Shown here: positions 2,457-37,640 of the stretch, one piece after another
How positions within the stretch are numbered: position 1 is the stretch's first letter
Layout: each line of letters begins with the position of its first letter
NCBI GenBank assembly: GCA_035627595.1
Contig: DASPLK010000005.1
Span: 69,513-133,512, forward strand
Direction of reading: 5' to 3'
DNA length: 64,000 nucleotides
Source of the DNA: Minisyncoccota bacterium
GTDB lineage: Bacteria > Patescibacteriota > Minisyncoccia > Phycocordibacterales > Phycocordibacteraceae
Translations under genes and position numbers: made by a program
Notes under the pieces: generated by a model
Told to the model about the DNA's origin: nothing
Databases searched by the model: none
Seen by the model: the letters and a program-made list of their open reading frames with translations, nothing else

Positions 2457-2464
2457 GCTTACAC

Positions 2465-3313: not shown

Positions 3314-3341
3314 AGCTGACCGTCTGGGACGATATTCGAAC
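3314..3341. repeat. direct repeat copy 2 (agctgaccgtctgggacgatattcgaac)
   Basis: Same orientation as copy 1; 27 nt upstream of the nucleotidyltransferase start; a weaker third partial copy lies at 3386-3402. Confidence 0.7.
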
Positions 3342-3377
3342 CTCAATATGTAGATAATGCTACCTTTGACGCTTTAC

Positions 3378-4178
3378 CTATACGTGAGCTGACGTCCTGC
3401 TCTTAAACGCTTTTGGTTCCTTGAAGCCATCTAATTGGTCAGGGTGATTAGCTAAGAGATAGCGCCTTATGACTTTTGCCATATATCGATTCTTTAAACG
3501 AAAAGCCCTGACTTCCGCTGGAACGTCACTGAAGGGCTGAGTGGTTTTCGATTTATGACAATCGGGGTCCTTAAAGGTGCCCGAATGTTTGGGACAGAGC
3601 GTCAGATAGTCATGTTGATGCTGATGTATATGATGCGCCTCTCCTGATTTTATGTGCCCCAATATCCTATGGTAATCATCCGACAGTTCACTCAAGACCT
3701 CATCGTCCATTCTCCAAAGGAACACGTATTTGATTAAGTACTCTGATCTCGGAATACTTGGGTCATCTACATACCATACGAACAGCACGTACTTGTTCTT
3801 CTTATACAAAGAAGATTCGCGTATGTCCGCATTCTTGTACTCCGAATTGTAATTAATGATGTTTAGAGATAGCGGCTCCTTTACGCTAAGCTGGCCATTC
3901 TTAAGTAGCTTCAAAGGGCTTGTCTTAAGCTCAACATCCAAGTGCTCTATGTCAGCTGCAGCTGTGTTGTTCTTCCCTATGCCAAAATATCCCTCTTCAA
4001 TCACATAACCGACAAAGGCTTTCGTGCTGACACGAGTAGCCTCATCACTGTCAACTATAGAGGGCATTATCTCCCTCAAGGTCTTACCCTCAAGATCTCG
4101 ACGAGCAATCTCCTCGAGTTCCTGGACGGTCTTTATGCTGCTCAGGTCAATGCGGGCTATATACAGAAAGTGTAACAC
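3378..4178 (-). CDS. MutH/Sau3AI-family (PD-(D/E)xK) endonuclease, putative restriction endonuclease
   Basis: 266 aa, GTG start; LDVELKTSP motif matches the MutH catalytic DxExK region (MutH: LGVELKTIP); preceding G-rich segment GYFGIGKN resembles the MutH N-terminal motif; divergent from the m5C methyltransferase gene. Confidence 0.6.
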   Translation of the reverse strand: MLHFLYIARIDLSSIKTVQELEEIARRDLEGKTLREIMPSIVDSDEATRVSTKAFVGYVIEEGYFGIGKNNTAAADIEHLDVELKTSPLKLLKNGQLSVKEPLSLNIINYNSEYKNADIRESSLYKKNKYVLFVWYVDDPSIPRSEYLIKYVFLWRMDDEVLSELSDDYHRILGHIKSGEAHHIHQHQHDYLTLCPKHSGTFKDPDCHKSKTTQPFSDVPAEVRAFRLKNRYMAKVIRRYLLANHPDQLDGFKEPKAFKSRTSAHV

Positions 4179-4258
4179 CCTGAATATCGCCGCAAGATTA
4201 TTACCGTGTAAATGGCCGACTTGATCAAGTTTTATCCAGCTGATAGAATGGGCAAATC

Positions 4259-5530: not shown

Positions 5531-5975
5531 TTGCGGACCGCACACGCTTCGCAGCCAAAGAAGGATTCTTCTTGATCTCGCATTCCCATACGACAACGAC
5601 CTTCCATCCATCCTTTCTTAGTCCCGACTCTTTTCGTGAGTCACGCTCTTTATTCCTCTTGAACTTCTCCTTCCAGAATCCCTGATTCGATTTTGGTATA
5701 GGTAGCTTACAGTGAGTGCATCTATGCCAGTAACATCCATGCACGAATACAGCTACCTTCTTACCTTTGAATACCAAATCAGGCCTCCCGTGTTCTGTCT
5801 TGAGATGTAGCCGATAACCCCTGGCCCCTAGACTAAAGAGTGCTTTCCGCAACGCTATCTCAGGCTTTGTATTCGAACCTTTATTCGCACTCATAACATT
5901 AGAGGTCTTCCCTTCTTTCGGAATTGGAGATCTTCCGTCGCGAATATAGGCTCTTCTCGATTCGAGTCTATTCAT
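5520..5975 (-). CDS. vsr: very-short-patch-repair (Vsr) endonuclease
   Basis: RPDLVF...KKVAVFVHGCYWHRC...VVVVWECE matches the Vsr core; a start at the internal Met (5894) is likely; 3' end overlaps dcm convergently. Confidence 0.85.
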   Translation of the reverse strand: MNRLESRRAYIRDGRSPIPKEGKTSNVMSANKGSNTKPEIALRKALFSLGARGYRLHLKTEHGRPDLVFKGKKVAVFVHGCYWHRCTHCKLPIPKSNQGFWKEKFKRNKERDSRKESGLRKDGWKVVVVWECEIKKNPSLAAKRVRSAIKS

Positions 5976-6066
5976 GCATACAGGATAAGCTTGTACGTGT
6001 ATCCTGCCCAGAGTAACTTATAGCAACCCAATTTGCTCTCATTTTCACGTAGGACGTATTAATACA

Positions 6067-6097
6067 GAAGAGCCCCGATTGTGGATCGGGGCTCTTC
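6067..6097 (-). terminator. stem-loop terminator downstream of the GHKL ATPase gene
   Basis: gaagagccccgat tgtg gatcggggctcttc, 13-bp perfect stem. Confidence 0.55.
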
Positions 6098-6111
6098 AAA
6101 TGATGAGTAAT

Positions 6112-7665
6112 TTAGTCCAGAAGGACCTTGAGATTCTTGGACATGGTTTCCAGCACCGCATCAAGAAGTGCGGTAGTCTCCGCCGTGCTGTACTTCAGCT
6201 TCGCTTCCCCAAGAGCGTAGGCTAGGAAGGACACTGCGTTCACGAGCTCCTGCTCGTCACGCTGAGCAAACACAACCTTCTGGAAGAAGGGATGTTCATT
6301 ATTCCAGGTGATGACTGTCATGCCACCTTCTTTCTCTGCTGTGAATATATGTCCATGTGCGCCAAGGGCAGCATTCTCGAAGCGAGCTGTGCCACTAAGA
6401 GTGCCAGCACCACGCTGATGCGCACCGACTTGGTAAGCAGACACCTCCACTACCCCCCTTGGGGACCTGCGTTTTGATGAAGGCGGGTTCGCGGCCTCAA
6501 TAGACGGTGCTCGGTCCAGCAACTTCGTCTTCTGGGCAATTGACCCTTCTGCTTCAGAGAAGTCGAGCTCGGTAGACGCCACAGGAGTCTTCCTTCGAGA
6601 GGAGTACTTTGCGCGCAGCCGGTCAACTTCTGGCATTACTTCCTTGGCAATCTTGTCGAGGAATGCTTGGGACGGGTTCACATTGTGCTTTGTGTAGTTG
6701 ATTCCCATTACCGCATCAAGCCGACCTGACACGAGAATTTCAGCACGCACACGGTTCAGGCTGTTATGGCGCACCCACAACCCGTTAAGGTCGTCCGCTG
6801 AGGCGACCTGACGATAATTGCGCAGCACATAGAAACCTTGCGTATCCTGTCCAACAGTCTTCTTCTTTCCCTTTGCTGGAAGTTCGTCAGGCAAACGAAA
6901 GACCTTCACTGTGAACTGCTCAGAAACTCCGGATCCAAGCTTGATTTCGAATGTCTTATTGAACTCCAGGTCCGAGGAATAACCTGATTCCTCGACATAA
7001 CGACCATCGAGCCACATAGGGTCAATGATTGATGCTTCCTTGCCGTTTACGACAATCTTCTTCCCAGCACGAATGAAGTAGCGGTAGATTTCGCCGAGAT
7101 GGTGGCGCAAACCATTCTCAAATTCCTCAATCTCGACACGTTCAAGCTGGTCGCAGTTCTTAAGAACAACAACGGTCCCGTGCGCCCCCAGTCCGTAACC
7201 TTGTGCGATTTTCTCCTGCTCGGATGTAGCCACACCGCGATGAATATCGAAAGAATTCGATTCTTCCATCACATCCAAATCCATAATTCCGACAAGAACT
7301 GGTGACCCTTCCGTCCGGGTGTAGACCTCAACACGCTTTGCAATTGAGATTGAGCCAGTCACAAGACCCATGCCAAAACGACCGAGATCTGAGTCCACAT
7401 TGCGTTCGGTGAGTGATCCGAGACGAAGGGCCTGTTCCAAGACCTTCTCATCCATTCCCGCACCGTTATCGCACACGACTATGGTCGCCTTCCCCGCCTT
7501 CTGATCCCCAGAAATCAGCACTTCGACGACCGATGCGTCTGCATCGAGTGAATTATCGACGATGTCGGAGATTGCGACCTTATTCTCGTAACCACTGTAC
7601 CGAAGAGAAGCCATTAGCTTCCCTGCGTTTGGCGTATTCGCCTGATTGAACTTTTCGTTCTGCAT
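6112..7665 (-). CDS. MutL/MORC-like GHKL (Bergerat-fold) ATPase
   Basis: Motif I IVDNSLDA; motif II VVCDNGAGMD; motif III GRFGMGLVTGSIS as in the MutL N-terminus. Likely start is Met at 7665 (MQNEKFN) with GAGG 13 nt upstream; the ORF track extends to 7827 through the repeats. Confidence 0.7.
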   Translation of the reverse strand: MQNEKFNQANTPNAGKLMASLRYSGYENKVAISDIVDNSLDADASVVEVLISGDQKAGKATIVVCDNGAGMDEKVLEQALRLGSLTERNVDSDLGRFGMGLVTGSISIAKRVEVYTRTEGSPVLVGIMDLDVMEESNSFDIHRGVATSEQEKIAQGYGLGAHGTVVVLKNCDQLERVEIEEFENGLRHHLGEIYRYFIRAGKKIVVNGKEASIIDPMWLDGRYVEESGYSSDLEFNKTFEIKLGSGVSEQFTVKVFRLPDELPAKGKKKTVGQDTQGFYVLRNYRQVASADDLNGLWVRHNSLNRVRAEILVSGRLDAVMGINYTKHNVNPSQAFLDKIAKEVMPEVDRLRAKYSSRRKTPVASTELDFSEAEGSIAQKTKLLDRAPSIEAANPPSSKRRSPRGVVEVSAYQVGAHQRGAGTLSGTARFENAALGAHGHIFTAEKEGGMTVITWNNEHPFFQKVVFAQRDEQELVNAVSFLAYALGEAKLKYSTAETTALLDAVLETMSKNLKVLLD

Positions 7666-7670
7666 ATTTG

Positions 7671-7706
7671 TTTTATGCCTCGACGACGCGTGAGCGCCAC
7701 AAAGAC
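7671..7706. repeat. 36-bp direct repeat A (ttttatgcctcgacgacgcgtgagcgccacaaagac)
   Basis: 34/36 identical to 7790-7825; sits in the 5' leader/RBS region of the GHKL ATPase gene. Confidence 0.75.
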
Positions 7707-7789
7707 GGTTATGAGCACATTTGTAAAGCACAAAGGCCGAGCCGCAGAAGCGACCGGCAAAGAAGTTAAGTAGAGATATCCATAGGTAA

Positions 7790-7825
7790 TTTTGTGCCTC
7801 GACGACGCGCGAGCGCCACAAAGAC
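7790..7825. repeat. 36-bp direct repeat B (ttttgtgcctcgacgacgcgcgagcgccacaaagac)
   Basis: Direct copy of repeat A, 119 bp away; only two copies, so not a CRISPR array. Confidence 0.75.
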
Positions 7826-7860
7826 AATTACTGATAACAGCCGTAGTATACCGCGCATGA

Positions 7861-8292
7861 ACAACCTCGTCAAAACAGGTAACGCGTCCAGGACGCTCGA
7901 GACTAAGTATCCCTTCCCTTCCGGAGATTGAGTCCCGTCTCACTGACGGCTTCTCTTCCGGCCTAATTCGCAAAGAACTCTGCCAAGAGAAGATGAGAGA
8001 AGTCGCTAACAAACGCGCAGAACTAGAGCAGCAGATTGAAGATACTGAATCAAAGAACGGAGTATCATCTGTGACTTTCGAACAGATACAAAACGTGTTT
8101 ATAGAAGGCAGTAGAGCCGCAGAAAAGTATTTGCTCGCCGATGATACGGAAAAGCGAGAGATGCTCCAAAAACTACTTTCGAACGCTACTATCGAAAACG
8201 GAAAAGTGGCGCAGATACAATACAAAAGTCCGTATCAACTACTTGCACTGACCCCTAAAAACGCTGACTTTTCGACTTTGCTGCGGGACTAG
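7861..8292 (+). pseudogene. gene remnant abutting the tRNA-Gln 3' end (possible recombinase/integrase C-terminal fragment)
   Basis: Frame is open from 7861 with no start; first ATG at 7993 gives a 99-aa charged coiled-coil-like tail ending inside the tRNA 3' end; no catalytic motifs visible. Confidence 0.25.
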
Positions 8293-8351: not shown

Positions 8352-8454
8352 ATCAGCAAAGCGGCAGGAGCCGCTCTGCTAGCTAGAAGATACACGAAAA
8401 TAGGCTCGGAGAAAAGCCTGCGGCTCATGCTATAGTTTCGGGACAACTGAATAC

Positions 8455-8551
8455 GTATCAAGAGCGCGGCGAGGCATCTGGGCCTTTGAACCGCCAGCAA
8501 CCATTCCAAACGGAACCGGTGCTTCCAGCCCCAACCCATGGGGAGCGATGC
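8455..8551 (+). promoter_or_regulatory. SAM-I (S-box) riboswitch aptamer upstream of metK
   Basis: GUAUCAAGAGCGCGGCGAGG...UGGGCCUUUGAACCGCCAGCAACC...GGUGCUUCCAGCC...GAUGC matches the SAM-I core (UAUCAAGAG, GGAGG, GGCCC, GAA.CC.GCAACC, GGUGC..UCC, P1-closing GAUG). Confidence 0.55.
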
Positions 8552-8565
8552 AGTAATGTCTCACG

Positions 8566-8596
8566 TCTCCTTGGTCGGGAGATTATTTCATTTAGT
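8566..8596 (+). terminator. candidate riboswitch expression-platform terminator
   Basis: tctcc ttggtcg ggaga followed by ttatttcattt; short stem. Confidence 0.35.
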
Positions 8597-8605
8597 CCTA
8601 GTCTC

Positions 8606-9658
8606 ATGTTCCACCTGCTTACCCACTACACTACCGAAAGCGTTACCAGAGGCCATCCTGATAAGGTGTGCGACCAGATTTCAGACGCCATTCTCGACGC
8701 CTGCCTAGAGCAGGATCCCGCTAGCCGCGTGGCGGTGGAGGCGTTTGGCAGCCACGGAACGCTTATGATCGGAGGCGAGATCACAACTCGCGCATCGGTA
8801 GACTATGCGGACATAGCGCGGAAGGTATACGAGGATATCGGATACACGGAGCCCCTGGACATCCTCTCCCGTGTCGTCACCCAGTCAGGTGATATCGCGC
8901 AGGGTGTCAACACAGGTGGAGCGGGCGACCAAGGCATCATGTACGGCTACGCGACCAACGAGACTGAAGAGTACCTTCCTCAGGGCGTAGTCCTCTCGCA
9001 CGCGCTTGCCAGGAAGATTGAAGACCTGCGTACGAGCGGCACTCTCCCCTACCTAAGACCAGACGGCAAAACGCAGGTGACCATTCGTAACGGAAAACTC
9101 CTCACCGCTCTCACATCGACCCAGCACACAGAGGAAGCGGAGCTTGAGTCCATTCGAAAAGATCTCAAGGAACACCTCTTTGCGCCGGTGCTTGGTGATA
9201 CATCTGAGATAGAGCTCCTCGTTAATCCGACCGGACGCTTCGTCCAGGGAGGCTTTGAGGCGGACGCTGGTCTCACGGGCCGCAAGATCATGGTGGATAC
9301 ATACGGAGGTCTCCTGCCGCATGGCGGCGGCGCATTCAGTGGAAAGGACTCCACAAAGGTGGATCGCTCAGCTGCATACATGTGCCGCTTCGTTGCCAAG
9401 AACCTAGTCGCAAATGGATACGGCACCAAGGTGCTCGTCTCGGTCGCATACGCCATCGGCCGCGTGGAGCCGGTGATGGTAGAAGCGTTCGATGAGTCTG
9501 GAAAGAACCTCTCGGATATTGTGAACAAGCACTTCGACTTCCGCCCCCGCGCAATCGAAGAGCGTCTCTCACTCAGAAAGGCCCAGTTCAGGGACACAGC
9601 TGCGTACGGACACTTCGGCGTGGAAGGAAGACCCTGGGAAGATATAGTTGCGCTCTAA
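8606..9658 (+). CDS. metK: S-adenosylmethionine synthetase
   Basis: TESVTRGHPDKVCDQISDAILDA N-terminal motif; GGGAFSGKD signature; about 350 aa. The ORF-track start at 8486 overlaps the riboswitch and is rejected. Confidence 0.9.
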   Translation: MFHLLTHYTTESVTRGHPDKVCDQISDAILDACLEQDPASRVAVEAFGSHGTLMIGGEITTRASVDYADIARKVYEDIGYTEPLDILSRVVTQSGDIAQGVNTGGAGDQGIMYGYATNETEEYLPQGVVLSHALARKIEDLRTSGTLPYLRPDGKTQVTIRNGKLLTALTSTQHTEEAELESIRKDLKEHLFAPVLGDTSEIELLVNPTGRFVQGGFEADAGLTGRKIMVDTYGGLLPHGGGAFSGKDSTKVDRSAAYMCRFVAKNLVANGYGTKVLVSVAYAIGRVEPVMVEAFDESGKNLSDIVNKHFDFRPRAIEERLSLRKAQFRDTAAYGHFGVEGRPWEDIVAL

Positions 9659-19371: not shown

Positions 19372-20067
19372 CTATGCCTGGCCGTTCCCTTCAATATCGC
19401 GGAGCCGTGCCTCGGTACGTGCGATGTCCTCCGGGCGCCCTACGGGAAGCCATAATTCTTGCACGACTACATGGACCGGTGCTTCCTGAGACAGGTGCTG
19501 GAGAGCATCGGGGAGATAGTATTCGCCTGACGAAGAGACAGGCACGTCATAGCCAAAGATGCGCTCATCAAGGACCATAGCGCCCGTAGAGACTAGATTC
19601 GTAGGAGGAGCAGTTGGTTTCTCTACGATCTCCTCCAAGGAACCATTCTCTCCTACTCTTACCACCCCGAAATGCTGCGGCTCAGCATGCGGCGAGACAA
19701 TGAGGGAGAGTGGATACTTAAGCGCTTCTTCAAGCGCTTCTCGACCATGTATATCGTCAGCATTCATAAGAAGGAATCTCCCCGAGAGGTGCGGACGTGC
19801 AAGCGAAAGCGCTTTAAGGGTGCCCTCTGGCCTTTCCTGATAGACGTAAGAGATTGGGCGGCCACTATACGCATTGCCAAACGCGCTTTCGATCATCTCG
19901 CGCTTATACCCGACCACGAGTATGACCTCAGATACCTCTCCTGGGAGCGCATCGAGGATGTACCTGAGAATAGACTTCCCACTCACCTCAATAAGAGGCT
20001 TCGGACGTTCGAGCGTCAGCGGGAGCATGCGCCTCCCCTCTCCTGCTGCAAGTATGACCGCTATCAT
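19372..20067 (-). CDS. sugar-phosphate nucleotidyltransferase (NTP_transferase family)
   Basis: MIAVILAAGEGRRMLPLT...KPLIEV N-terminal motif typical of glucose-1-phosphate nucleotidyltransferases; likely start at 20067, upstream ORF extension rejected. Confidence 0.75.
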   Translation of the reverse strand: MIAVILAAGEGRRMLPLTLERPKPLIEVSGKSILRYILDALPGEVSEVILVVGYKREMIESAFGNAYSGRPISYVYQERPEGTLKALSLARPHLSGRFLLMNADDIHGREALEEALKYPLSLIVSPHAEPQHFGVVRVGENGSLEEIVEKPTAPPTNLVSTGAMVLDERIFGYDVPVSSSGEYYLPDALQHLSQEAPVHVVVQELWLPVGRPEDIARTEARLRDIEGNGQA

Positions 20068-20129
20068 GGCTCTAGTATCCACTACAACCGTCAAAACTCC
20101 GCATAGGTTCCTCATGCTACAGTACGCGT

Positions 20130-20831
20130 ATGAACGAAGATCATCTGGAGCACGAGGCCTTAAACAAGGCACTCGAGGACGACGCAATGCGCGCAGAGTA
20201 TGCCGCGCCTTATAACGATTACAAAGTGGGATTTGTCGCCCGCATGCTCGGCAAGCTTCTCATCGGTTCCGGTGACCTCGTGTATGGGACACATCCCTCC
20301 TATGCTAAATTCAAGGCGATCGAAGTGATCGCTCGTATTCCATACCAGTCATGGGAGGTTGCCAGCTACACGCTCCTCACAGCCCTTTATAGCGATGAGA
20401 AGCGTGCTATCGAACTGGCGAAGACCGGTGCGTTCGCGCGTATGGCTCAGGACAACGAGACTCTCCACGTCGTCGTTATCTCCCAGATCGTCTGTCGGCG
20501 CGGCGAACAGGGCTTCTTCCGCCACATCCTCATCCCGATCGTCTTCTCCCTCTTTTACTTCTGGACCCTTTTCGTGCTCTACATGGTGAACCGCAAGGCA
20601 TCACTCGAGCTTAACTACCTCTTTGAGGCGCATGCATACGAGCAGTATGGCGAGTTCCTCGAGCGCGAGGGTGACCGCTTAAAGCACACGCTGGTAACCT
20701 CAGAGTTCCTTGAATTCTACGGCAGGAATGTTCGCACTGAGTACGAGCTCTTCCGCTCTATTCGTAACGACGAGCTGATTCACCGCAACCGTTCGATTCG
20801 CGAGATTAAGGACTACACCAAGACTACGTAA
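20130..20831 (+). CDS. alternative-oxidase-like di-iron carboxylate protein (AOX/PTOX family-like)
   Basis: 233 aa; four-helix di-iron motifs in AOX order: IEVIARIP (LET-like), NETLHVV (NERMHL-like), EAHAYEQY (LEEEA.H-like), RNDELIHRN (RADE.HH-like); hydrophobic segment in between. Confidence 0.5.
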   Translation: MNEDHLEHEALNKALEDDAMRAEYAAPYNDYKVGFVARMLGKLLIGSGDLVYGTHPSYAKFKAIEVIARIPYQSWEVASYTLLTALYSDEKRAIELAKTGAFARMAQDNETLHVVVISQIVCRRGEQGFFRHILIPIVFSLFYFWTLFVLYMVNRKASLELNYLFEAHAYEQYGEFLEREGDRLKHTLVTSEFLEFYGRNVRTEYELFRSIRNDELIHRNRSIREIKDYTKTT

Positions 20832-21205
20832 CAGAACAGTGCGCCCATGACGCCAGCAAGCGTCGAAAAGAACAAAATGGACTGCGCCTTGGTGCGGTCC
20901 TTTTGTTGTATCTCCTCATCTTCCTTGGTGTGCTTTACCCCCTTCCCCTCGTCATAGAGACCGTGCAAACCATAGGTGACGGAGAAGCGAGATGTCCCCT
21001 CAAGCACGAGCCGTACGCCCATAAATAGCGGTATACCTACTACAAGCATGAACGCCTGCGGGAGATTAAGCACGAACACGGCGACCACGAACACGAGGGC
21101 CGCAAGAAGCGCGCGCTTACCAAGCTTCAAGCGCTCCTTCGCGACTTCCGCTTTCATATTGTGTGCGCCCGAGACGTACGTATCCATACAGTAATTGTAT
21201 AGCAC
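20813..21205 (-). CDS. hypothetical membrane protein
   Basis: 130 aa; three predicted TM helices. Confidence 0.4.
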   Translation of the reverse strand: MLYNYCMDTYVSGAHNMKAEVAKERLKLGKRALLAALVFVVAVFVLNLPQAFMLVVGIPLFMGVRLVLEGTSRFSVTYGLHGLYDEGKGVKHTKEDEEIQQKDRTKAQSILFFSTLAGVMGALFCYVVLV

Positions 21206-29093: not shown

Positions 29094-29097
<4 letters not shown>

Positions 29098-29669
29098 ATC
29101 CAGTTAGTTAGTACGTCTGTTACCGTAACGTTATGCGTACCGCGGTACACCCAAGTAACAGTTGCAGTAATTTTGACTGCATTATTCCCGCTGCCTGCGA
29201 CCGGTTCGATGCGAATGTAGCGCACGTACGGAGTCTTTGTCCCAGTTACGACGTGCGTATAAAAGAGATTTGATGAGCTAAGGTACAGGGGCCGCTCATA
29301 GCACGGCGGCTGCCCGCTTGGCGGGTTTCCGTTACATTGCTGTACCGCTAGGTTTACTTCACTTCCCCGCGTTACATCAACCGAACACGGCGCCGATATG
29401 CAGTTGCGTTCTCCTGTGCCGCCATCAAGACCGTAGAGCCAGCTCGCACCAGTCCTGCCAGCAAGGTAATTGTTGTCGCGCACGCCGCGCACATACTCAA
29501 CCGCCTCCTGCGCAAGCGCTGAAGCAATGAGGTCGTCACGCGCAGAAAAGGTCGCCGTAAGGGAGCGTTGGATTGCGTAGTACGGCAGGATGATTGTCAT
29601 CGTCAGCAAAAGCACTGCAACTAGTGTTTCGACGAGGGTGAAGCCGGATGGTGTAGATGTCATACGCAT
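29094..29669 (-). CDS. prepilin-type pseudopilin (minor pilin)
   Basis: 191 aa; G|FTLVETLVAVLLL prepilin N-methylation motif. Confidence 0.7.
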
Positions 29670-30254
29670 TTATAAAGGTAGCTCCAACAGGCGCTGCGTC
29701 GCCATAGTCTGAATGGTAAACGATACCGGCGGCTGGTCCGGCTCGGGGCGCATAGTGCCCTGGATGCTGATCAGAACCTGCGGCTGCGCGAAATTAACCT
29801 CCGGATCTCCAGCATCTGCGCCTACGCCCTGCACATAGAACTTCAAGTTTTGTATGGTGATGCGCTTATCAGTGAGATCAATCGCTTGAGAGTCACTGCA
29901 TTCCGCGACCGTACACCTTCCGAGCGAGCCATTCTCCTTCAGCAAATACGTGATAAGTCGGCCCTGATCATCCCTAAACGAAAACCGATCAAGCCCGCTA
30001 GGCCAGCAATTTCCCTGCACCAGATCTCCGCCGCACATGTAATCAGTGCCGGTGCGAATGGAGCGGCTCATACTGTCGATGGCGAACGAAAGGTTTGTTG
30101 TCACGTCATTGGTATAGCGTGCAACACGCTCCAGACTCATGAACTTAAGAAATGCACCGGTCGCAAGTAACATCACGAGGCTGAACAGGCCGATGGCGAC
30201 CATCATCTCAAGAAGCGAGTATCCGCGATGTGTCGGTTCGTATCTCATGGACAA
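29670..30254 (-). CDS. prepilin-type pseudopilin (minor pilin)
   Basis: 194 aa; G|YSLLEMMVAIGLFSLV prepilin motif. Confidence 0.7.
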   Translation of the reverse strand: MSMRYEPTHRGYSLLEMMVAIGLFSLVMLLATGAFLKFMSLERVARYTNDVTTNLSFAIDSMSRSIRTGTDYMCGGDLVQGNCWPSGLDRFSFRDDQGRLITYLLKENGSLGRCTVAECSDSQAIDLTDKRITIQNLKFYVQGVGADAGDPEVNFAQPQVLISIQGTMRPEPDQPPVSFTIQTMATQRLLELPL

Positions 30255-30943
30255 GTTGTGAAGCTAGCCGCTGGACAGGTCTGCGGCACGGACACCTGCC
30301 CCACTTGCGATACGACAATACATTTCATATTTGCGACCGTTCCGCTTGGGGGCGCTATCCATATGACTGCACACTTAAGAGGCGCCGCGGCATTAGTCGT
30401 AGTAATCATAGTCATGATCGCCTCGGTATTGGGTCGCAAGAACGTTATGTTCATGGAGGTCCAAGATGAATGAGAACCGCAAACGCGCGAATTGTTTGAG
30501 GTACGGAGCCCGCAAAAGTCATGGATGCGGAATCCTTTGTTGAGGTTAAAGGTAGTGAGAATTTCCGACACACTATCATAAAGACAGTTGCCTGGCTTGG
30601 CTTCAGGCGTATTCACGGTACCGGTCGGACATCCGCTATAGGCAGGCGTTGATTGGATATCAGCGAAGATACGGTACTGGGCAGTGAGCGTATCTTGAAA
30701 ATTAATTCCGTATCCGGCGTTCTGAACACCGCTAAAGTTTCGGCTTGATAGACCGAGTGATTGCGCCTCACGTATAGATAGTGCCACTGTGTATGCAGTG
30801 TTGGTGATGATCAAGGAGCGATTGTAGTTCGTTTGGCTCGTTATCGTAATGGTCGTGATTATGATGATGATCACGAGAACCACGATAAGCTCCACAAGCG
30901 TGAAGCCGCGCGCTACAGCATTAGTATGTCGAGGGGATTCCAT
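30245..30943 (-). CDS. prepilin-type pseudopilin (minor pilin)
   Basis: 232 aa; G|FTLVELIVVLVII prepilin motif. Confidence 0.7.
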   Translation of the reverse strand: MESPRHTNAVARGFTLVELIVVLVIIIIITTITITSQTNYNRSLIITNTAYTVALSIREAQSLGLSSRNFSGVQNAGYGINFQDTLTAQYRIFADIQSTPAYSGCPTGTVNTPEAKPGNCLYDSVSEILTTFNLNKGFRIHDFCGLRTSNNSRVCGSHSSWTSMNITFLRPNTEAIMTMITTTNAAAPLKCAVIWIAPPSGTVANMKCIVVSQVGQVSVPQTCPAASFTTCP

Positions 30944-31671
30944 GAAAAGAAGAAAGCGAGGAGGTAGCCAATGGCGAGAAACGGTACGAACGGCACCTCT
31001 ATACCCATTCTAGGCCCCCCACGGCGCAATACCAATATGAGGATGCCGATAACCGCACCTATCCAAAACGAGAGCAGGAGCCCACCATACGCATAGGGCG
31101 CGCACATAAGCGACAGCGCAAGCGCAATCGGACTGTCTCCAAGACCCATTGCCCGCCCCTTTGAGAGTGCGTAGAGCAGGAAGAATCCGAGTCCGATGAG
31201 TCCTGCGATCATGACCGTTATGCCAAGATCATCAAGGGAATCAGCGCGCAGCACCGCAATCAATGCACCAAGCGCCATCAGGGCATTCGATGCAATGGTG
31301 GGCACGACCGTGTGCCGAAGATCGTACACGACAATGAATGCAAGTACGGCAAGCGCTATGAGGAACACCGGCAACACGATTGTGAGCCCAAGCACGAGAT
31401 ATGCCGCAAAAAATGTTAGCGCGAGCGTACCCTCAAGAAAGAGATACGCTGCTGGCACCCGCGAGCCGCATCCCCTACAGGTGCCGCGCGTAGCTAGGTA
31501 CGAAACAATGGGGACGAGATCAGCAGGCGTAAGGAAGCGCGCACAGGAATTGCAGCGCGAGCGCCCAGTTAAAAATGACTGCCCGGTATATGCACGTTCA
31601 GCAACTACGCCGACAAAGCTGCCGAGTATCGCCCCAAGACATGCGAGCGAGATGGCGATGACGAGCTCCAT
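30913..31671 (-). CDS. pilD: prepilin peptidase (A24 family)
   Basis: 252 aa; N-terminal CxxC...CxxC zinc motif (CNSCARF...CRGCGSR); polytopic membrane protein. Confidence 0.85.
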   Translation of the reverse strand: MELVIAISLACLGAILGSFVGVVAERAYTGQSFLTGRSRCNSCARFLTPADLVPIVSYLATRGTCRGCGSRVPAAYLFLEGTLALTFFAAYLVLGLTIVLPVFLIALAVLAFIVVYDLRHTVVPTIASNALMALGALIAVLRADSLDDLGITVMIAGLIGLGFFLLYALSKGRAMGLGDSPIALALSLMCAPYAYGGLLLSFWIGAVIGILILVLRRGGPRMGIEVPFVPFLAIGYLLAFFFSWNPLDILML

Positions 31672-31676
31672 GAACG

Positions 31677-32168
31677 CTACTGGCAGGACACGTCACTTGC
31701 CGCAAGCTTGTTGAGTGTCGCGGTGACTGTCACACCGTCTGAATCAATACAGAAGTAGTGCGCAGTTCCAGAGGGAGGTGGTGACTTAAGGGGCGCCTGC
31801 ACTGCCCATTTTGCAGACGTTGAATGACAGGTGACCTTGTTCGTTGCGCCCCCATCAGTATAATCCGCGTCGTATACGTAGCCGTGCTTCTGCGCGAGTA
31901 TGATGCCCATGTCATACATGGACTTTGTACCGTTGGCGACCGTATCAAGACAGACGTTCGTATAACTTCCCCCGTTCGCGTCGACATAAAGCTCAACCTG
32001 ACGTCTCATCTGCCCAAGAGAACGTTTGATGTCGGCATCGGCTCCCTTGGTACGGGCAGAATTGAGCGCGACGAGAACCGTTGCGGAGAGTATGCCGATA
32101 ATAGCGATAACAACGAGGAGCTCGATGAGCGTGAAGCCGTAACGGGTATCGCGTTGTGGAGTGTACAT
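31677..32168 (-). CDS. pilA: type IV pilin
   Basis: Leader MYTPQRDTRYG|FTLIELLVVIAIIGILSA; C-terminal Cys pair; ORF track extends to 32234 but the short leader start is preferred. Confidence 0.8.
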   Translation of the reverse strand: MYTPQRDTRYGFTLIELLVVIAIIGILSATVLVALNSARTKGADADIKRSLGQMRRQVELYVDANGGSYTNVCLDTVANGTKSMYDMGIILAQKHGYVYDADYTDGGATNKVTCHSTSAKWAVQAPLKSPPPSGTAHYFCIDSDGVTVTATLNKLAASDVSCQ

Positions 32169-32293
32169 AGATGAAAATGGCCTGAGCCCTATAGAGCTAT
32201 TGTAACAGGTACGCATCGATGCTCCTCCCGTCATTGTTCACAGCAAAACGCGCGGGAGGTCCCGCGCGTTTTGTGAAGTGGAGAGATGTGAGA

Positions 32294-32788
32294 CTAGCTC
32301 GGGCAACCGCCTGTTGTGCCGGAGATTGCAGTCGGAACTGTAGCAGTTGTGGTCGCACGGCCGAAGCTGTCGACACAGTAGTACCGCTGACCGTTAGTCG
32401 TGTCCTTAAGCGGAGCGTAGACCATGAAGGCAGAGTTGGTGCCGGTCGTTACCTGGCAGAACACGGAAGGACCGCCAAGCGTACTCGTTGCGTTCTGGAT
32501 CGCGCTCTTGATCGTCGCATTTGCGAACATGTTGCCCGTCGCCGACAAGTTACAGTTGGTGAGGGTGTGCGCCGTCGTACCGTATGCGTTGTTGTTGTCG
32601 TCGTAGTAGAGCTCAGCCTGCGTCTGGATAGTCGCAAGGTTAGACTTCACTGCCGCATCAACACCCTTCGTGCGCGCCGAGTTAAGGGACGCAAGAACAA
32701 CTGCGGAAAGAATACCGATAATAGCGATAACAACGAGGAGCTCGATGAGCGTGAAGCCTCTATGTCCGCGTGTAGGTGCAAGATTCAT
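32294..32788 (-). CDS. pilA: type IV pilin (second tandem copy)
   Basis: Leader MNLAPTRGHRG|FTLIELLVVIAIIGILSA; C-terminal Cys pair. Confidence 0.85.
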   Translation of the reverse strand: MNLAPTRGHRGFTLIELLVVIAIIGILSAVVLASLNSARTKGVDAAVKSNLATIQTQAELYYDDNNNAYGTTAHTLTNCNLSATGNMFANATIKSAIQNATSTLGGPSVFCQVTTGTNSAFMVYAPLKDTTNGQRYYCVDSFGRATTTATVPTAISGTTGGCPS

Positions 32789-32884
32789 AGTAATGAAGGT
32801 CTGGTTAAGGCGGCTTTTGGGTAATATCCGCTCTACGTATTGTACGAGAGAAACGCTAACGGCCTAATCCCTGTGTGGATAACG

Positions 32885-34093
32885 CTAGCCGATGGCGCCT
32901 GCAAGGTTGTAGATAGGCACCATCACTGACGCAAGAAGAGAGCCCACTCCAAGACCAAGAAGCACGATCATGAGTGGTTCGATGAGATCCACGAGGGTGT
33001 CCACCGCTGTCGTCACCTCGCGCTGATAGAACTTCGCGAGCGTCGAGAGAATGCTGCCTAGCTCTCCCGTCTCCTCACCCACTCTGATCATGGCAATCAT
33101 GATGCCCGGCATTTCAGGATGAAGCGCAAGCGCTTCTGAGATTGAGCTGCCTCCCTTCACTGCCTCGCTCGTCTCCATGAGGATCTTCTCGTACACGGGA
33201 CTTCCCACAACATTTGCGGTGATATCGATCGCCTCGACGACCGCGACGCCTGAGACAAGCATGGTCGAGAAGTTGTCTGCGATGCGCGAGAGATAGAGCT
33301 TCTGGTACAGGTTGCCCATGTACGGGATGTGGAGCCGCAATGTGTCAAAGAAGAGTGCACCGCCCTTGGTTCTGCCATGCCGCCAAGCAAGGAATCCGCC
33401 GATAATAAGCGCGAGCAAGATGAAGAACCCGTATTCAACTAGGAATTGCGAAAGTCCAATGACAATCCTCGTGTAGATCGGAATCTCCTGCCCCGACTCA
33501 AGGAGGATGGCGGAGATCTTTGGAATCACCATCGTGAGCATCATTGCCATGACGACTACGAACACGCTGATGACGAATGCTGGGTAGATGAGTGCGTTCT
33601 TCGCCTTAGAGACGACCTCATACGTGCGGTCGAGGTAGTCAGCTAGATAGCCGAAAGTCTCCGAGAGCTTTCCGGACTCCTCACCCGCCTGCACCATGTT
33701 CACATAGAAAGAGCTGAAGGCTTTCGGGTGTCGCGCGAGCGCTTTAGAGATCGGACTTCCTCCCTGAAGGTCATCGGCGACCTGGGTCATGATCTCGGAA
33801 AGGTACTTATTGTCGACCTCGCTTGCGAGAAGGCGGAAGACGCGAAGTGCCGAAACCTGAGCCTCGAACAAAGTAGCGATCTGTCGAGAGAGGATCACCA
33901 CATCCTTGTTGGATACACGCTTGAATACGCCGAGATCGACCTCGAGAACCGACTTCTTGTTCAAAGGTTCTATTGCCGAGACGATAAGGTTGCGGCGCTG
34001 GAGCGTGGAGACGGCAACGTCCATCGAGAGAGCCTCGATTGTTCCTTGCTTCTCGTGTCCATCCCTATCCAGTGCGCGGTATGAGAAAAGCAT
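32885..34093 (-). CDS. pilC: type IV pilus assembly platform protein PilC (GspF family)
   Basis: 402 aa; duplicated T2SSF domains, three TM helices. Confidence 0.9.
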   Translation of the reverse strand: MLFSYRALDRDGHEKQGTIEALSMDVAVSTLQRRNLIVSAIEPLNKKSVLEVDLGVFKRVSNKDVVILSRQIATLFEAQVSALRVFRLLASEVDNKYLSEIMTQVADDLQGGSPISKALARHPKAFSSFYVNMVQAGEESGKLSETFGYLADYLDRTYEVVSKAKNALIYPAFVISVFVVVMAMMLTMVIPKISAILLESGQEIPIYTRIVIGLSQFLVEYGFFILLALIIGGFLAWRHGRTKGGALFFDTLRLHIPYMGNLYQKLYLSRIADNFSTMLVSGVAVVEAIDITANVVGSPVYEKILMETSEAVKGGSSISEALALHPEMPGIMIAMIRVGEETGELGSILSTLAKFYQREVTTAVDTLVDLIEPLMIVLLGLGVGSLLASVMVPIYNLAGAIG

Positions 34094-34096
34094 AAG

Positions 34097-35158
34097 CTAG
34101 ATGTAGCGTTCGAAGGTCTTTGGATCTGATGCGCGCTCGTACGCATGCTCGATGGTAACCTCGCCGCGCCGGACAAGCTCGGCAAGCGAGCGATCCATAT
34201 CGATCATGCCGTCCTGTGAACTCGTCTGGACCACGGTCGTGATCTCATGCGTGCGCCCTTCGCGGATGAGGTTCGCGATAGCGCTGTTATTTATGAGAAG
34301 TTCGTACGCCGGAATCTGACCGCCTGCGATTCTAGGTACCAGGCGCTGTGAGAAAATGCCGGCAAGCGAGCCCGCCAACTGTACGCGCACCTGATCCTGC
34401 TGGTTCGGTGGGAACATGTCGATGATACGGTCGATGGTCTGCGCTGCATTGTTGGTATGGAGCGTAGAAAGAACCAAGTGGCCAGTCTCAGCCGCAGTCA
34501 CCGCTGACGAGATAGTTTCTTGATCGCGCATCTCGCCGACCATGATGACGTTGACATCCTCGCGGAACGCGGCTTTCAAAGCTTGTGGGAAATCAGGCGC
34601 ATCTATACGAACCTCGCGCTGGTGAATAAGTGATTTCTTCTGCTCGAACAGATACTCCACCGGGTCCTCAATCGTGACGATGTGCTCGGCACGCGTCTCA
34701 TTGATGCGGTCGATAAGAGCCGCAAGCGTAGTTGATTTCCCCTGCCCTACCGGACCCACAACGAGGAAGAACCCCTGTGTCTTTTGAGAAAAGACCTCGA
34801 GGATGGGCGGGAGGTTTAGAGATGCGAAAGTACGAATCTCATGCGGAATGAGGCGCAGGGCGATTGTAATCGTGCCCTGTACCTGGTATCCGTTAACGCG
34901 GAAGCGCGCCTTGTCAGAGTGCGCGAATGAAAAGTCGATCGCACGATTTATGGAGAATGAATCCCAGATCTCCTTTGGGGCCATTTGCTTAAGCATCGCC
35001 TCTGTGTCAGAAGGGGTAAGCACAGGGTGCTGCAGCAACGGGACCAGTGAGCCTGATACGCGAATGATGGGCGGCGACCCGACAGAGATGTGGAGATCGG
35101 ATCCCCCCTCATTCACAACGACGTCCAAGAGCTCAGTAATGGAGGGCGTGGCGCTCAT
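34097..35158 (-). CDS. pilT: twitching motility retraction ATPase PilT
   Basis: 353 aa; Walker A GPVGQGKST; His box; PilT-type AIRNLIRE-like motif (AIANLIREG). Confidence 0.9.
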   Translation of the reverse strand: MSATPSITELLDVVVNEGGSDLHISVGSPPIIRVSGSLVPLLQHPVLTPSDTEAMLKQMAPKEIWDSFSINRAIDFSFAHSDKARFRVNGYQVQGTITIALRLIPHEIRTFASLNLPPILEVFSQKTQGFFLVVGPVGQGKSTTLAALIDRINETRAEHIVTIEDPVEYLFEQKKSLIHQREVRIDAPDFPQALKAAFREDVNVIMVGEMRDQETISSAVTAAETGHLVLSTLHTNNAAQTIDRIIDMFPPNQQDQVRVQLAGSLAGIFSQRLVPRIAGGQIPAYELLINNSAIANLIREGRTHEITTVVQTSSQDGMIDMDRSLAELVRRGEVTIEHAYERASDPKTFERYI

Positions 35159-35538
35159 ACGGGCTTCTCAATTATAGAAATGGTCTCCGAATAGACCTCG
35201 GAGGGGATGGCGGATGCTTTTATTATGTAACCGGCGGCACCGAGCTCCTTTGCGCGCTCTATATCACTCTCCTGCCCCTGGTTGGAGAGAATAATGACTT
35301 TCGTTCCCTGCGCGAGGTTTTCCTTACGCACTTCGGCAAGTATTTCAAAGCCGTCCATCTCTGGCATGACGATATCAAGCAGCATAGCGTCAGGCGCTGG
35401 ATTTTCCTTGAGCGCCGCAAGGAGCTCCTTGCCCTGGGTGAATGCGGTTACTTCGTGTCCTTGTGTGCGGAATTTGACCGCGTACATATCAAGAAGGAAC
35501 CGGTCGTCGTCAATGAGATAGATGCGGTACGTGGCCAT
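35155..35538 (-). CDS. CheY-like response regulator receiver protein (stand-alone)
   Basis: 127 aa; DD...D(MPEMDG)...K receiver signature; embedded between pilB and pilT. Confidence 0.85.
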   Translation of the reverse strand: MATYRIYLIDDDRFLLDMYAVKFRTQGHEVTAFTQGKELLAALKENPAPDAMLLDIVMPEMDGFEILAEVRKENLAQGTKVIILSNQGQESDIERAKELGAAGYIIKASAIPSEVYSETISIIEKPV

Positions 35539-35541
35539 GGT

Positions 35542-37311: not shown

Positions 37312-37316
37312 GCGGC

Positions 37317-37637: not shown

Positions 37638-37640
37638 ACG

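What the first reader, a model, noticed from the sequence alone, without database searches (positions are those of the whole stretch)
20130..20831. Alternative-oxidase-like di-iron protein in a genome with few respiratory signatures
The 233-aa protein has four E/ExxH-type motifs in AOX order (IEVIARIP, NETLHVV, EAHAYEQY, RNDELIHRN) with an intervening hydrophobic stretch, like membrane-associated di-iron quinol oxidases (AOX/PTOX).

No other respiratory complex genes appear in this window, and the lineage pattern suggests a reduced, largely fermentative organism. In that setting a stand-alone quinol/O2-scavenging oxidase would be notable. It could also be a different di-iron enzyme, for example a Coq7-like hydroxylase or a rubrerythrin-like protein.
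Basis: partly seen in the sequence, partly recalled or inferred. Interest (0 to 1): 0.5.

Follow-up and report, generated by a model that had tools for sequence, protein, structure and literature searches.

The report
Divergent alternative-oxidase-like enzyme in Patescibacteria
The gene encodes a real but very divergent relative of the alternative/plastid terminal oxidases (membrane di-iron enzymes that pass electrons from quinols to oxygen), from a clade confined to ultra-small Patescibacteria, which have no known respiratory chain and are absent from published surveys of these oxidases.

Summary
Window 20130-20831 (+) is an intact 233-aa ORF, and the four quoted motifs are there in that order.

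A bridging profile aligns all six metal ligands and the catalytic tyrosine with the TAO crystal structure: E65=E123, E110/H113=E162/H165, E166=E213, Y173=Y220, E215/H218=E266/H269. These residues are invariant across the family.

The family is large: at least 787 clusters at 90% identity and 152 species genomes, almost all Patescibacteria. In a rough tree it forms its own branch, separate from canonical AOX, from PTOX-like proteins and from other short bacterial homologues.

None of the 50 annotated window ORFs is a respiratory or quinone-biosynthesis gene. In 32 of 80 related loci, but not in this window, an FAD-linked D-2-hydroxyacid-dehydrogenase-type gene is tightly linked.

The most likely function is a non-energy-conserving quinol:O2 oxidoreductase used for O2 removal and redox balance. 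The substrate and the source of quinone are inferred, not shown. Databases already name relatives "alternative oxidase", but I found no paper describing the clade.

The parts
20130..20831 (+). CDS of the 233-aa AOX/PTOX-superfamily di-iron oxidase-like protein (stop codon included)
   Evidence: ORF listed. Pfam PF01786 above its gathering score. The N-terminus is conserved from M1 across the family, which supports this start codon. AF2 model pLDDT 85.3, pTM 0.84. Best structural match is TAO.
20232..20285 (+). Amphipathic helix (residues 35-52, FVARMLGKLLIGSGDLVY), in the position of AOX membrane-binding helix alpha1
   Evidence: Helix H35-52 in the model; sequence confirmed. The equivalence to TAO alpha1 is inferred from helix order only.
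20319..20342 (+). Motif 1, IEVIARIP: ligand E65 (= TAO E123). K60 upstream aligns with TAO R118 and A68 with TAO A126.
   Evidence: Register from the A2 profile alignment to 3vv9/9m2a. E65, R69 and Y72 are invariant in A2.
20454..20474 (+). Motif 2, NETLHVV: ExxH ligands E110 and H113 (= TAO E162 and H165)
   Evidence: N109, E110 and H113 are invariant.
20523..20588 (+). Hydrophobic helix (residues 132-153), aligned with the TAO alpha4 region; putative membrane anchor
   Evidence: Highest Kyte-Doolittle window, 2.19. Lies within model helix H129-153. Aligns with TAO 'PLRVSIIITQAIMYLFLLVAYVISP'.
20625..20648 (+). Motif 3, EAHAYEQY: ligand E166 (= TAO E213), H168 (where TAO has E215), A169 (= A216), Q172 (where TAO has T219), catalytic-type Y173 (= TAO Y220)
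   Evidence: for the register. E166, H168, A169 and Y173 are invariant in A2.
20763..20789 (+). Motif 4, RNDELIHRN: D214, and ExxH ligands E215 and H218 (= TAO D265, E266, H269)
20068..20129 (.). 62-bp divergent intergenic region between the NTP-transferase gene (true start most likely ATG at 20067, minus strand) and the oxidase gene; presumed promoter region
   Evidence: Relatives call the NTP-transferase at 218-233 aa, and MIAVILAAGE starts at 20067. No sigma-70 consensus was found, so promoter function is inferred only.
20879..20900 (+). Terminator-like GC-rich hairpin followed by a T-run, 48 nt after the stop codon (weak evidence)
   Evidence: Consensus scan: 3 sites found against 0.9 expected in shuffles. 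It lies inside the convergent ORF 20813-21205(-).

Best explanation
The gene encodes a functional, membrane-associated di-iron carboxylate oxidase of the AOX/PTOX superfamily. It belongs to a divergent, short (about 230 aa) clade that is essentially confined to Patescibacteria (CPR), mainly Paceibacteria-type lineages.

Most likely mechanism, as in AOX and PTOX:
- The protein sits on the cytoplasmic face of the membrane through an amphipathic helix and a very hydrophobic helix.
- It takes two electrons at a time from a lipophilic quinol at a site next to the di-iron centre.
- It reduces O2 to water without pumping protons.

In an organism without a respiratory chain this would serve as an oxygen sink and as a way to reoxidise flavoprotein dehydrogenases, not as a means of energy conservation.

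In about half of the related genomes the likely electron-input enzyme is encoded immediately upstream. It is an FAD-linked D-2-hydroxyacid (D-lactate, glycolate or D-2-hydroxyglutarate) dehydrogenase-type flavoprotein. That would give a two-enzyme chain comparable to the glycerol-3-phosphate dehydrogenase, ubiquinone and AOX chain of bloodstream trypanosomes.

Shown here: the fold, the ligand set, family membership, strong conservation, the taxonomic distribution and the gene linkage.

Inferred: quinol as the substrate, the physiological role, and that the quinone is taken from a host or the environment, because no biosynthesis genes were seen.
For: - Pfam AOX is the only hit and is above its cut-off. 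Of 24 sequences spanning the family and its relatives, 23 hit AOX.
- The bridging profile A2 hits TAO at E=2.4e-9 and puts all six ligands and Y220 in register. The basic residue at R118 (K60) and the pocket residues A126 and A216 (A68, A169) are also kept.
- Ligands are invariant in A1 and A2. Family members are 65-92% identical over hundreds of clusters, which indicates strong purifying selection.
- The hydrophobic helix 132-153 lies where TAO has its membrane helix.
- 152 species genomes carry the family, almost all Patescibacteria.
- The FAD-oxidase is linked on the same strand in 32 of 80 loci. In 19 it lies upstream with a gap of 100 bp or less, and in one the gene order is reversed. It is the only recurrent redox neighbour.
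- Its closest solved and curated relatives are glycolate oxidase, LctD, mitochondrial D-LDH, D2HGDH and the YdiJ flavoprotein half, which by established knowledge do not use NAD as acceptor.
- There is a precedent for dehydrogenase plus quinone plus AOX as a redox valve in reduced parasites (PMC2820529).
Against: - No quinone-biosynthesis or quinone-reducing respiratory gene is in the window, and none was seen in the flanks of relatives that came with Pfam annotation. By general knowledge CPR bacteria lack such pathways, so the presumed substrate has no demonstrated source.
- The FAD-oxidase partner is absent from this window (tblastn) and from the window's own synteny class.
- Two TAO quinol-pocket residues differ: E215 is H168 and T219 is Q172.
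- Similarity to characterised enzymes is low, 16% identity to the TAO core. The family-only profile finds no solved AOX.
- The FADox linkage could partly reflect inherited synteny rather than function.
Confidence: 0.62

Rival explanations
1. The protein has the AOX fold and di-iron site but does different chemistry. It would act on a non-quinol lipophilic substrate, for example as an O2-dependent hydroxylase, desaturase or oxidase that modifies scavenged lipids or isoprenoids, in the way COQ7 and other membrane di-iron proteins differ from AOX.
For: No quinone source is evident. The clade is a separate branch, only 16-27% identical to any other group. Pocket residues differ from TAO: H168 for E215 and Q172 for T219. 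Four of the 24 sequences in alignment A2 also give weak COQ7 hits.
Against: The catalytic-type Tyr, all six ligands, the basic residue at the R118 position and A126/A216 are kept. H168 is shared with the PTOX-like sequences; I identified those as PTOX from remembered motifs, and PTOX is a quinol oxidase. No reductase or hydroxylase partner such as COQ9 or a ferredoxin is linked. The nearest non-CPR relatives are in quinone-containing aerobes such as Nitrospira.
Confidence: 0.2
2. The protein is a quinone-independent terminal partner of the linked FAD enzyme. The flavoprotein would dock on the di-iron protein and pass electrons to it directly, so the pair would act as a D-2-hydroxyacid oxidase that makes water rather than H2O2.
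For: Tight same-strand linkage, with gaps of about 23-73 bp in 19 loci and one locus in reversed order. No quinone source is evident. The FAD enzyme has a conserved, moderately hydrophobic insertion at residues 305-350 that could be an interface.
Against: There is no precedent in the AOX/PTOX superfamily. More than half of the assessable loci, including this window, lack the FAD enzyme nearby. The hydrophobic, quinol-type pocket residues are conserved.
Confidence: 0.1
3. The protein is a soluble ferritin-like protein (rubrerythrin, Dps, bacterioferritin or COQ7-type) rather than an AOX-type oxidase. These were the first reader's fallback options.
Confidence: 0.03
4. The gene is a decaying or non-functional horizontally acquired relic.
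For: Its distribution among Patescibacteria is patchy: 152 species genomes matched, a pattern-limited lower bound. It is a stand-alone gene in variable contexts.
Against: The ORF is intact. Members are 65-92% identical across hundreds of clusters and every catalytic residue is invariant. GC content is the same as the surrounding DNA. Synteny is conserved with relatives.
Confidence: 0.02

Closest known systems
Trypanosome/mitochondrial and proteobacterial alternative oxidase (AOX; e.g. T. brucei TAO, PDB 3VV9)
   Different: Only about 16% identity to the TAO core. A profile of the CPR family alone does not find TAO. The motif is 'FEAHA' instead of the AOX 'LEEEA', so H168 replaces E215, and Q172 replaces T219. 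The protein is much shorter, 233 aa against 329 aa for TAO. The host has no respiratory chain in view.
Plastid/plastoquinol terminal oxidase (PTOX, IMMUTANS type) of plastids and cyanobacteria
   Same: It shares the VE-x-HA-xx-Y motif, with His at the position of TAO E215, and the ARxPY, NExxH and DExxH motifs. The CPR profile reaches PTOX-like sequences at E of 1e-14 to 1e-9, whereas it does not reach TAO.
   Different: About 23% identity. It lacks the insertion before the last helix and the N-terminal extension. In the NJ tree it falls on a separate branch, and the PTOX-like sequences group with TAO at 99.5%. The host is not photosynthetic. I identified the P0188-P0262 set as PTOX from remembered motifs, not from a named reference sequence.
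Short (about 230 aa) bacterial AOX-like proteins of Hydrogenedentes, Spirochaetota, Acidobacteriota, Omnitrophota, Elusimicrobia and Nitrospira, which NCBI names 'alternative oxidase'
   Same: Same length and architecture. 27-34% identity, for example 34% over 223 residues to the Ca. Nitrospira neomarina protein. Same invariant residues. They are also stand-alone genes.
   Different: They form a separate clade, with 97% bootstrap against 99% for the CPR clade. At least some hosts are ordinary aerobes with large genomes. As far as I could find, these proteins are also biochemically uncharacterised.
Minimal 'dehydrogenase, quinone, AOX' redox valve of bloodstream T. brucei and microsporidia
   Same: A non-energy-conserving oxidase retained by a reduced, host-dependent organism that lives by substrate-level phosphorylation. 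A flavoprotein dehydrogenase is the proposed electron input (PMC2820529; FADox linkage).
   Different: The input enzyme here would be a D-2-hydroxyacid-dehydrogenase-type flavoprotein, not G3PDH. It is absent from this window. The presence of quinone is unproven.

Membership tests
AOX/PTOX superfamily (Pfam PF01786, membrane-bound di-iron carboxylate quinol oxidases) | Profile match above the curated threshold | tested here: met
   PF01786: E=5.5e-6, 26.6 bits against a cut-off of 22.7, protein residues 57-220 matching profile positions 52-209 of 216. The margin is small. Several close relatives carry no precomputed Pfam hit.
AOX/PTOX superfamily (Pfam PF01786, membrane-bound di-iron carboxylate quinol oxidases) | Six metal ligands on four helices: E, ExxH, E, ExxH | tested here: met
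   E65, E110/H113, E166 and E215/H218 align with TAO E123, E162/H165, E213 and E266/H269. They are invariant in A1 and A2.
AOX/PTOX superfamily (Pfam PF01786, membrane-bound di-iron carboxylate quinol oxidases) | Conserved catalytic tyrosine seven residues after the third-helix Glu (TAO Y220) | tested here: met
   Y173 aligns with TAO Y220 and is invariant.
AOX/PTOX superfamily (Pfam PF01786, membrane-bound di-iron carboxylate quinol oxidases) | AOX-type fold: a four-helix bundle plus two further long helices | tested here: met
AOX/PTOX superfamily (Pfam PF01786, membrane-bound di-iron carboxylate quinol oxidases) | The ligands converge on a single binuclear site in three dimensions | not testable with these tools
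   Model coordinates are not exposed, so distances could not be measured. Support is indirect only: the 2.6 A superposition on TAO and the residue register.
AOX/PTOX superfamily (Pfam PF01786, membrane-bound di-iron carboxylate quinol oxidases) | Interfacial (monotopic) membrane binding through hydrophobic helices | tested here: inconclusive
   There is a very hydrophobic helix at 132-153 (KD 2.19) and an amphipathic helix at 35-52. Sequence alone cannot separate monotopic from transmembrane insertion.
AOX/PTOX superfamily (Pfam PF01786, membrane-bound di-iron carboxylate quinol oxidases) | Quinol:O2 oxidoreductase activity (cyanide-insensitive, inhibited by SHAM or gallates) | not testable with these tools
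   This needs biochemistry. No characterised member of this clade was found in the literature.
Canonical AOX clade (mitochondrial and proteobacterial) | Close sequence kinship, including the LEEEA and NERMHL motifs | tested here: not met
   The motifs here are FEAHA and NETLHV. The family profile gives no TAO hit at E<=10. Identity to the TAO core is 16%, and the tree places it on a separate branch.
PTOX clade | PTOX-specific insertion before the last helix; N-terminal extension; photosynthetic host | tested here: not met
   The insertion and the extension are absent in alignment A2. The CPR clade is separated from the PTOX-like sequences in the NJ tree. The host is a Patescibacteria lineage.
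COQ7 / Clk-1 demethoxyubiquinone hydroxylase | Profile match to PF03232 and a COQ7-like fold as the best match | tested here: not met
Rubrerythrin / ferritin / Dps | Profile match, a soluble four-helix bundle only, and (for rubrerythrin) a rubredoxin domain | tested here: not met

The most novel reading that the evidence does not exclude
Many Paceibacteria-type CPR bacteria, usually described as strictly fermentative and lacking electron transport, run a minimal oxygen-reducing chain. An FAD-linked D-2-hydroxyacid dehydrogenase (or another flavoprotein) reduces a quinone that the cell does not make but takes from its host's membrane. This distinct third branch of the AOX/PTOX superfamily then reoxidises the quinol with O2 to give water. 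That would be a bacterial counterpart of the trypanosome and microsporidian AOX redox valve. It would also extend AOX/PTOX-type oxygen reductases well beyond the Proteobacteria and Cyanobacteria to which surveys currently confine them.
Probability: 0.3. Interest if true: 0.7.

Novelty: new variant of a known kind. Interest (0 to 1): 0.52.

Why it matters
Recent surveys restrict prokaryotic AOX to Alpha-, Beta- and Gammaproteobacteria and PTOX to Cyanobacteria (PMC7618691). One passing report mentions a single proteobacterial-type AOX in a CPR genome and treats it as horizontal transfer (PMC9540462). A 2025 study of oxygen adaptation in CPR lists many O2-using genes but not this one (PMC12577380).

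Here a separate, strongly conserved branch of the superfamily turns up in at least 152 Patescibacteria species, with related short forms in several other non-photosynthetic phyla.

If it is active it would:
- give these host-dependent bacteria a way to remove O2 and dispose of reducing equivalents without a respiratory chain;
- imply that they hold quinones they cannot make;
- change the inferred taxonomic distribution and history of the di-iron oxygen reductases.

It is a small, expressible protein, so the question can be tested directly.

Tried and rejected
- Direct sequence search of the protein and of the CPR-only profile against PDB sequences found no AOX. The one weak hit, a kinesin-like protein at E=0.14, was dismissed as chance. 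A bridging alignment (A2) was needed to reach TAO.
- NCBIfam has no model for this protein or for its relatives.
- tblastn for the FAD-oxidase partner in the window found nothing better than E=1.4.
- I tested whether the other immediate neighbours in other clades are redox enzymes. They are housekeeping genes: ArgRS, SerRS, a UvrC-like protein, Ddl, MurB, a PAP2 phosphatase, MltG and a cupin. So no second partner emerged.
- Contexts of non-CPR relatives (Nitrospira and a 5.1-Mb genome) were uninformative.
- The listing of cluster members returned no organism names for the intermediate sequences. A second homologue search supplied them.
- Literature searches pairing alternative oxidase, PTOX or quinol oxidase with Patescibacteria, Parcubacteria, CPR or Paceibacteria found no description of the clade. 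The search for Patescibacteria plus quinone biosynthesis returned only irrelevant microbiome papers.
- The AFDB fold library was unavailable.
- The promoter scan found no sigma-70 consensus upstream.
- My earlier working count of 34 FADox-linked loci was corrected to 32 by an exact recount.
Full report
**1. The observation**

Window 20130-20831 (+) is an intact ATG-to-stop ORF of 233 aa.

| Motif | Sequence | Coordinates |
|---|---|---|
| 1 | IEVIARIP | 20319-20342 |
| 2 | NETLHVV | 20454-20474 |
| 3 | EAHAYEQY | 20625-20648 |
| 4 | RNDELIHRN | 20763-20789 |

Between motifs 2 and 3 lies the most hydrophobic stretch of the protein, HILIPIVFSLFYFWTLFVLYMV (residues 132-153, Kyte-Doolittle 2.19 over 19 residues).

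The start codon is supported by conservation of the N-terminus from M1 across relatives.

The overlap with the minus-strand ORF 19372-20187 is an artefact of the longest-ORF rule. Relatives call that NTP-transferase at 218-233 aa, and MIAVILAAGE begins at 20067. That leaves a 62-bp divergent intergenic region.

**2. The organism and the window**

The closest homologues come from MAGs labelled Patescibacteria, Parcubacteria, Paceibacterota, Kaiserbacteria, Nomurabacteria, Wolfebacteria, Moraniibacteria and Yonathbacteria.

I scanned 50 window ORFs against Pfam. They encode typical CPR housekeeping functions:
- a type IV pilus cluster, several peptidoglycan-binding proteins and FtsEX;
- LigA, GatA, RecG, FtsH, PrfB, PyrG, MetK and endonuclease V;
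- a restriction/methylase islet.

The only redox-related proteins are an HI0933-like flavoprotein (1194-2456) and a malic enzyme (43923-45056). There is no NADH dehydrogenase, cytochrome oxidase, bc complex, ATP-synthase subunit or quinone-biosynthesis gene in these 64 kb. The rest of the genome could not be examined.

**3. What the protein is**

*Profile searches.* Pfam gives a single hit, AOX (PF01786): E=5.5e-6, 26.6 bits against a gathering score of 22.7, covering residues 57-220. NCBIfam has nothing.

*Structure.* An AlphaFold2 model built on a 25-sequence family alignment is confident (pLDDT 85.3, pTM 0.84). It consists of long helices at 35-52, 58-87, 109-124, 129-153, 155-185 and 204-232.
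- Foldseek against the PDB puts Trypanosoma brucei alternative oxidase at ranks 1-13 (probability about 1.0, query TM-score (TMq) 0.5-0.6). COQ7, ferritins and R2lox have probability 0.4 or less.

*Ligand register.* The CPR-only profile does not reach TAO by sequence. A bridging alignment that adds more distant relatives (A2) hits TAO at E=2.4e-9. The printed alignment gives this register:

| Window protein | TAO | Note |
|---|---|---|
| K60 | R118 | basic residue kept |
| E65 | E123 | ligand |
| E110 / H113 | E162 / H165 | ligands |
| E166 | E213 | ligand |
| H168 | E215 | differs |
| A169 | A216 | kept |
| Q172 | T219 | differs |
| Y173 | Y220 | catalytic-type Tyr |
| D214 / E215 / H218 | D265 / E266 / H269 | E215 and H218 are ligands |

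E65, R69, Y72, N109, E110, H113, E166, H168, A169, Y173, D214, E215 and H218 are invariant across all 24 sequences of A2. The hydrophobic helix aligns with the TAO segment PLRVSIIITQAIMYLFLLVAYVISP.

The Coq7-like and rubrerythrin-like alternatives are rejected. The one thing I could not do is measure ligand-to-ligand distances, because model coordinates are not exposed.

**4. The family and its place in the superfamily**

*Size.*
- The word-indexed search found 787 clusters at 90% identity with E<=1e-3. The top 120 are all about 230 aa and 65-92% identical.
- The exhaustive search of 50%-identity representatives found 406 clusters at E<=1e-3, of which 15 are at E<=1e-30.
- A pattern-seeded scan of one genome per GTDB species found 152 genomes with a relative, almost all Patescibacteria. 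One is a complete 579-kb genome, CP174360.1. Because the scan depends on peptide patterns, this count is a lower bound.

*More distant relatives* fall into two sets.
- Short bacterial proteins of about 230-290 aa from Hydrogenedentes, Spirochaetota, Terriglobia, Omnitrophica, Elusimicrobia and Ca. Nitrospira neomarina, some named "alternative oxidase" by NCBI. The window protein is 34% identical to the Nitrospira protein over 223 residues.
- Longer eukaryote-type proteins with N-terminal extensions and an insertion before the last helix. Their motifs (ALETIARVPYF, HFAESWNE[LM]HHLLIME, VExHAxxTY) match my recollection of PTOX. That identification rests on memory of the motifs, not on a named reference.

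*Tree.* A rough neighbour-joining analysis used 223 columns, 200 bootstraps, and the TAO core taken as the only canonical AOX. It gives three well-separated groups: the CPR clade (99%), the other short bacterial forms (97%) and PTOX-like plus TAO (99.5%). Mean identities of the CPR clade to the three are 27%, 23% and 16%.

The window protein is therefore a member of the AOX/PTOX superfamily. It belongs neither to the canonical AOX clade nor to the PTOX clade.

**5. Genomic context**

In the window and its closest relatives the gene is monocistronic. It is divergent from a sugar-nucleotide NTP-transferase and convergent with a small conserved membrane ORF (20813-21205) that overlaps its 3' end by 19 nt.

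Across the 80 related loci, neighbour clustering shows several synteny classes. The one recurrent redox neighbour is a 551-553-aa protein with FAD_binding_4 and FAD-oxidase_C domains. It is on the same strand within about 1.4 kb in 32 of 80 loci:

| Arrangement | Loci |
|---|---|
| Upstream, gap 100 bp or less | 19 |
| Upstream, gap 101-300 bp | 2 |
| Upstream, one small gene inserted between | 10 |
| Immediately downstream (L077) | 1 |
| Enough upstream sequence, no FAD-oxidase | 34 |
| Too little upstream sequence to judge | 14 |

The gene upstream of the pair varies (TerC, GtrA, an ABC transporter, others). In a rough AOX tree the linked loci are not confined to one tight subclade: 21 fall in one clade and 11 elsewhere. 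This argues for more than passive synteny, but it does not prove it.

The flavoprotein's closest solved or curated relatives are glycolate oxidase, LctD, mitochondrial D-lactate dehydrogenase, D-2-hydroxyglutarate dehydrogenase and the flavoprotein half of YdiJ. By established knowledge these enzymes hand electrons to ETF, cytochrome c or quinone rather than to NAD. It has no transmembrane segment. It does have a conserved, moderately hydrophobic insertion at residues 305-350.

This gene is not in the window. All other immediate neighbours in other clades are housekeeping genes, and non-CPR relatives are also stand-alone.

**6. Most likely mechanism**

*Shown:* an AOX-type fold, a complete and invariant di-iron ligand set with the catalytic tyrosine, a hydrophobic helix where AOX binds the membrane, strong purifying selection, and recurrent linkage to a flavoprotein dehydrogenase.

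*Inferred:* the protein binds the inner face of the membrane, oxidises a quinol and reduces O2 to water without proton translocation. It would act as an oxygen sink and as a vent for reducing equivalents in a cell that lives by substrate-level phosphorylation.

The nearest functional precedent is the glycerol-3-phosphate dehydrogenase, ubiquinone and AOX chain of bloodstream trypanosomes, which has also been proposed for microsporidia (PMC2820529).

The weak point is the quinone. No biosynthetic gene was seen in the window or in the annotated flanks of relatives. The quinone would have to be scavenged, which is plausible for organisms thought to take lipids from hosts, but this is my inference.

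The rivals are:
- different chemistry on another lipophilic substrate;
- direct electron transfer from the flavoprotein;
- a soluble ferritin-like role;
- a relic gene.

The first two remain open. The last two are contradicted by the data.

**7. Comparison with what is known, and novelty**

Public annotation already labels some relatives "alternative oxidase" or "ubiquinol oxidase". The family assignment is therefore not new at database level.

In the literature I could search:
- no paper pairs alternative oxidase, PTOX or quinol oxidase with Patescibacteria, Parcubacteria, CPR or Paceibacteria in a relevant way;
- one phylogeny notes a single CPR sequence nested among proteobacterial AOX and treats it as transfer (PMC9540462), which is a different thing from this clade;
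- a 2025 survey of oxygen reductases finds AOX only in Pseudomonadota and PTOX only in Cyanobacteriota, with MAG-only lineages outside its dataset (PMC7618691);
- a 2025 study of oxic adaptations in CPR does not list the gene (PMC12577380).

I therefore rate it a new variant of a known kind: the same predicted chemistry and fold, on a distinct and undescribed branch, in an unexpected physiological setting, with a candidate partner that is not the classical one.

**8. Verdict**

Interest is moderate, 0.52.
- A specialist in AOX/PTOX or in CPR physiology would find the distribution and the missing quinone surprising.
- The question is directly testable with a small recombinant protein.
- Against that, the family assignment is already implicit in databases, and the function remains inferred.

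Noticed in passing
L014 8322-9974, L017 8307-9941, L026 7610-9241 and 29 further loci; absent from the window: A 551-553-aa FAD_binding_4/FAD-oxidase_C flavoprotein (D-2-hydroxyacid dehydrogenase type; best curated match is the N-terminal half of YdiJ) is linked on the same strand to the oxidase gene in 32 of 80 related loci. The gap is often about 23-27 bp, and in L077 the gene order is reversed.
   Followed up: partly
window 52425-52501 (+): A tRNA-Ile with anticodon TAT (UAU). Most bacteria read AUA with a lysidine-modified CAU tRNA, so this suggests an unusual AUA-decoding strategy in this genome.
   Followed up: no
window 56533-56945 (+): A tmRNA (Rfam 108 bits) with an unusually long predicted 26-residue tag peptide, ANNTVARGVLSPIQMSDLTPFAFARA.
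   Followed up: no
window 8452-8555 (+) and 8486-9658 (+): A SAM-I riboswitch lies directly in front of the S-adenosylmethionine synthetase (MetK) gene. The mechanical ORF start overlaps the aptamer, so the true start must be further downstream.
   Followed up: no
window 2000-8000: A low-GC block (0.47-0.48 against about 0.54-0.55 elsewhere) holds a MutH-like endonuclease (3378-4178, -), a C-5 cytosine methylase (4259-5530, +) and an HATPase_c_3 protein (6112-7827, -). This is probably an acquired restriction-modification or defence islet. The relative L008 carries a methylase/Vsr/SNF2 set upstream of its oxidase gene instead.
   Followed up: no
window 42000-48000, ORF 45732-47609 (-): A GC-rich stretch (0.58-0.60) contains a 625-aa ORF with no credible Pfam match (only a sub-threshold phage P2 GpU hit). 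It sits next to an N-acetylmuramoyl-L-alanine amidase with a peptidoglycan-binding domain.
   Followed up: no
window 20813-21205 (-): A small (130 aa) predicted membrane protein with no Pfam family is convergent with the oxidase gene and overlaps its 3' end by 19 nt. It is conserved at the same position in close relatives (L003, L008, L009), so it could be functionally linked or simply syntenic.
   Followed up: partly
window 29094-40042 (-): A complete-looking type IV pilus cluster: several N-methyl pilins, prepilin peptidase, PilC (T2SSF), two T2SSE ATPases, and PilO- and PilM-like proteins. This is typical of episymbiotic CPR bacteria.
   Followed up: no
P0141, P0296, P0346, P0369, P0382, P0398, P0404 (not in the window); L090 and L091: A wider set of short (about 230 aa) AOX-like proteins occurs in Hydrogenedentes, Spirochaetota, Terriglobia, Omnitrophica, Elusimicrobia and Ca. 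Nitrospira neomarina. These phyla are outside the published AOX/PTOX distribution. The genes are stand-alone with uninformative neighbours.
   Followed up: partly
window 1194-2456 (-): An HI0933-like FAD flavoprotein (420 aa) of unknown physiological role. It is the only flavin oxidoreductase in the window, and no link to the oxidase is evident.
   Followed up: no
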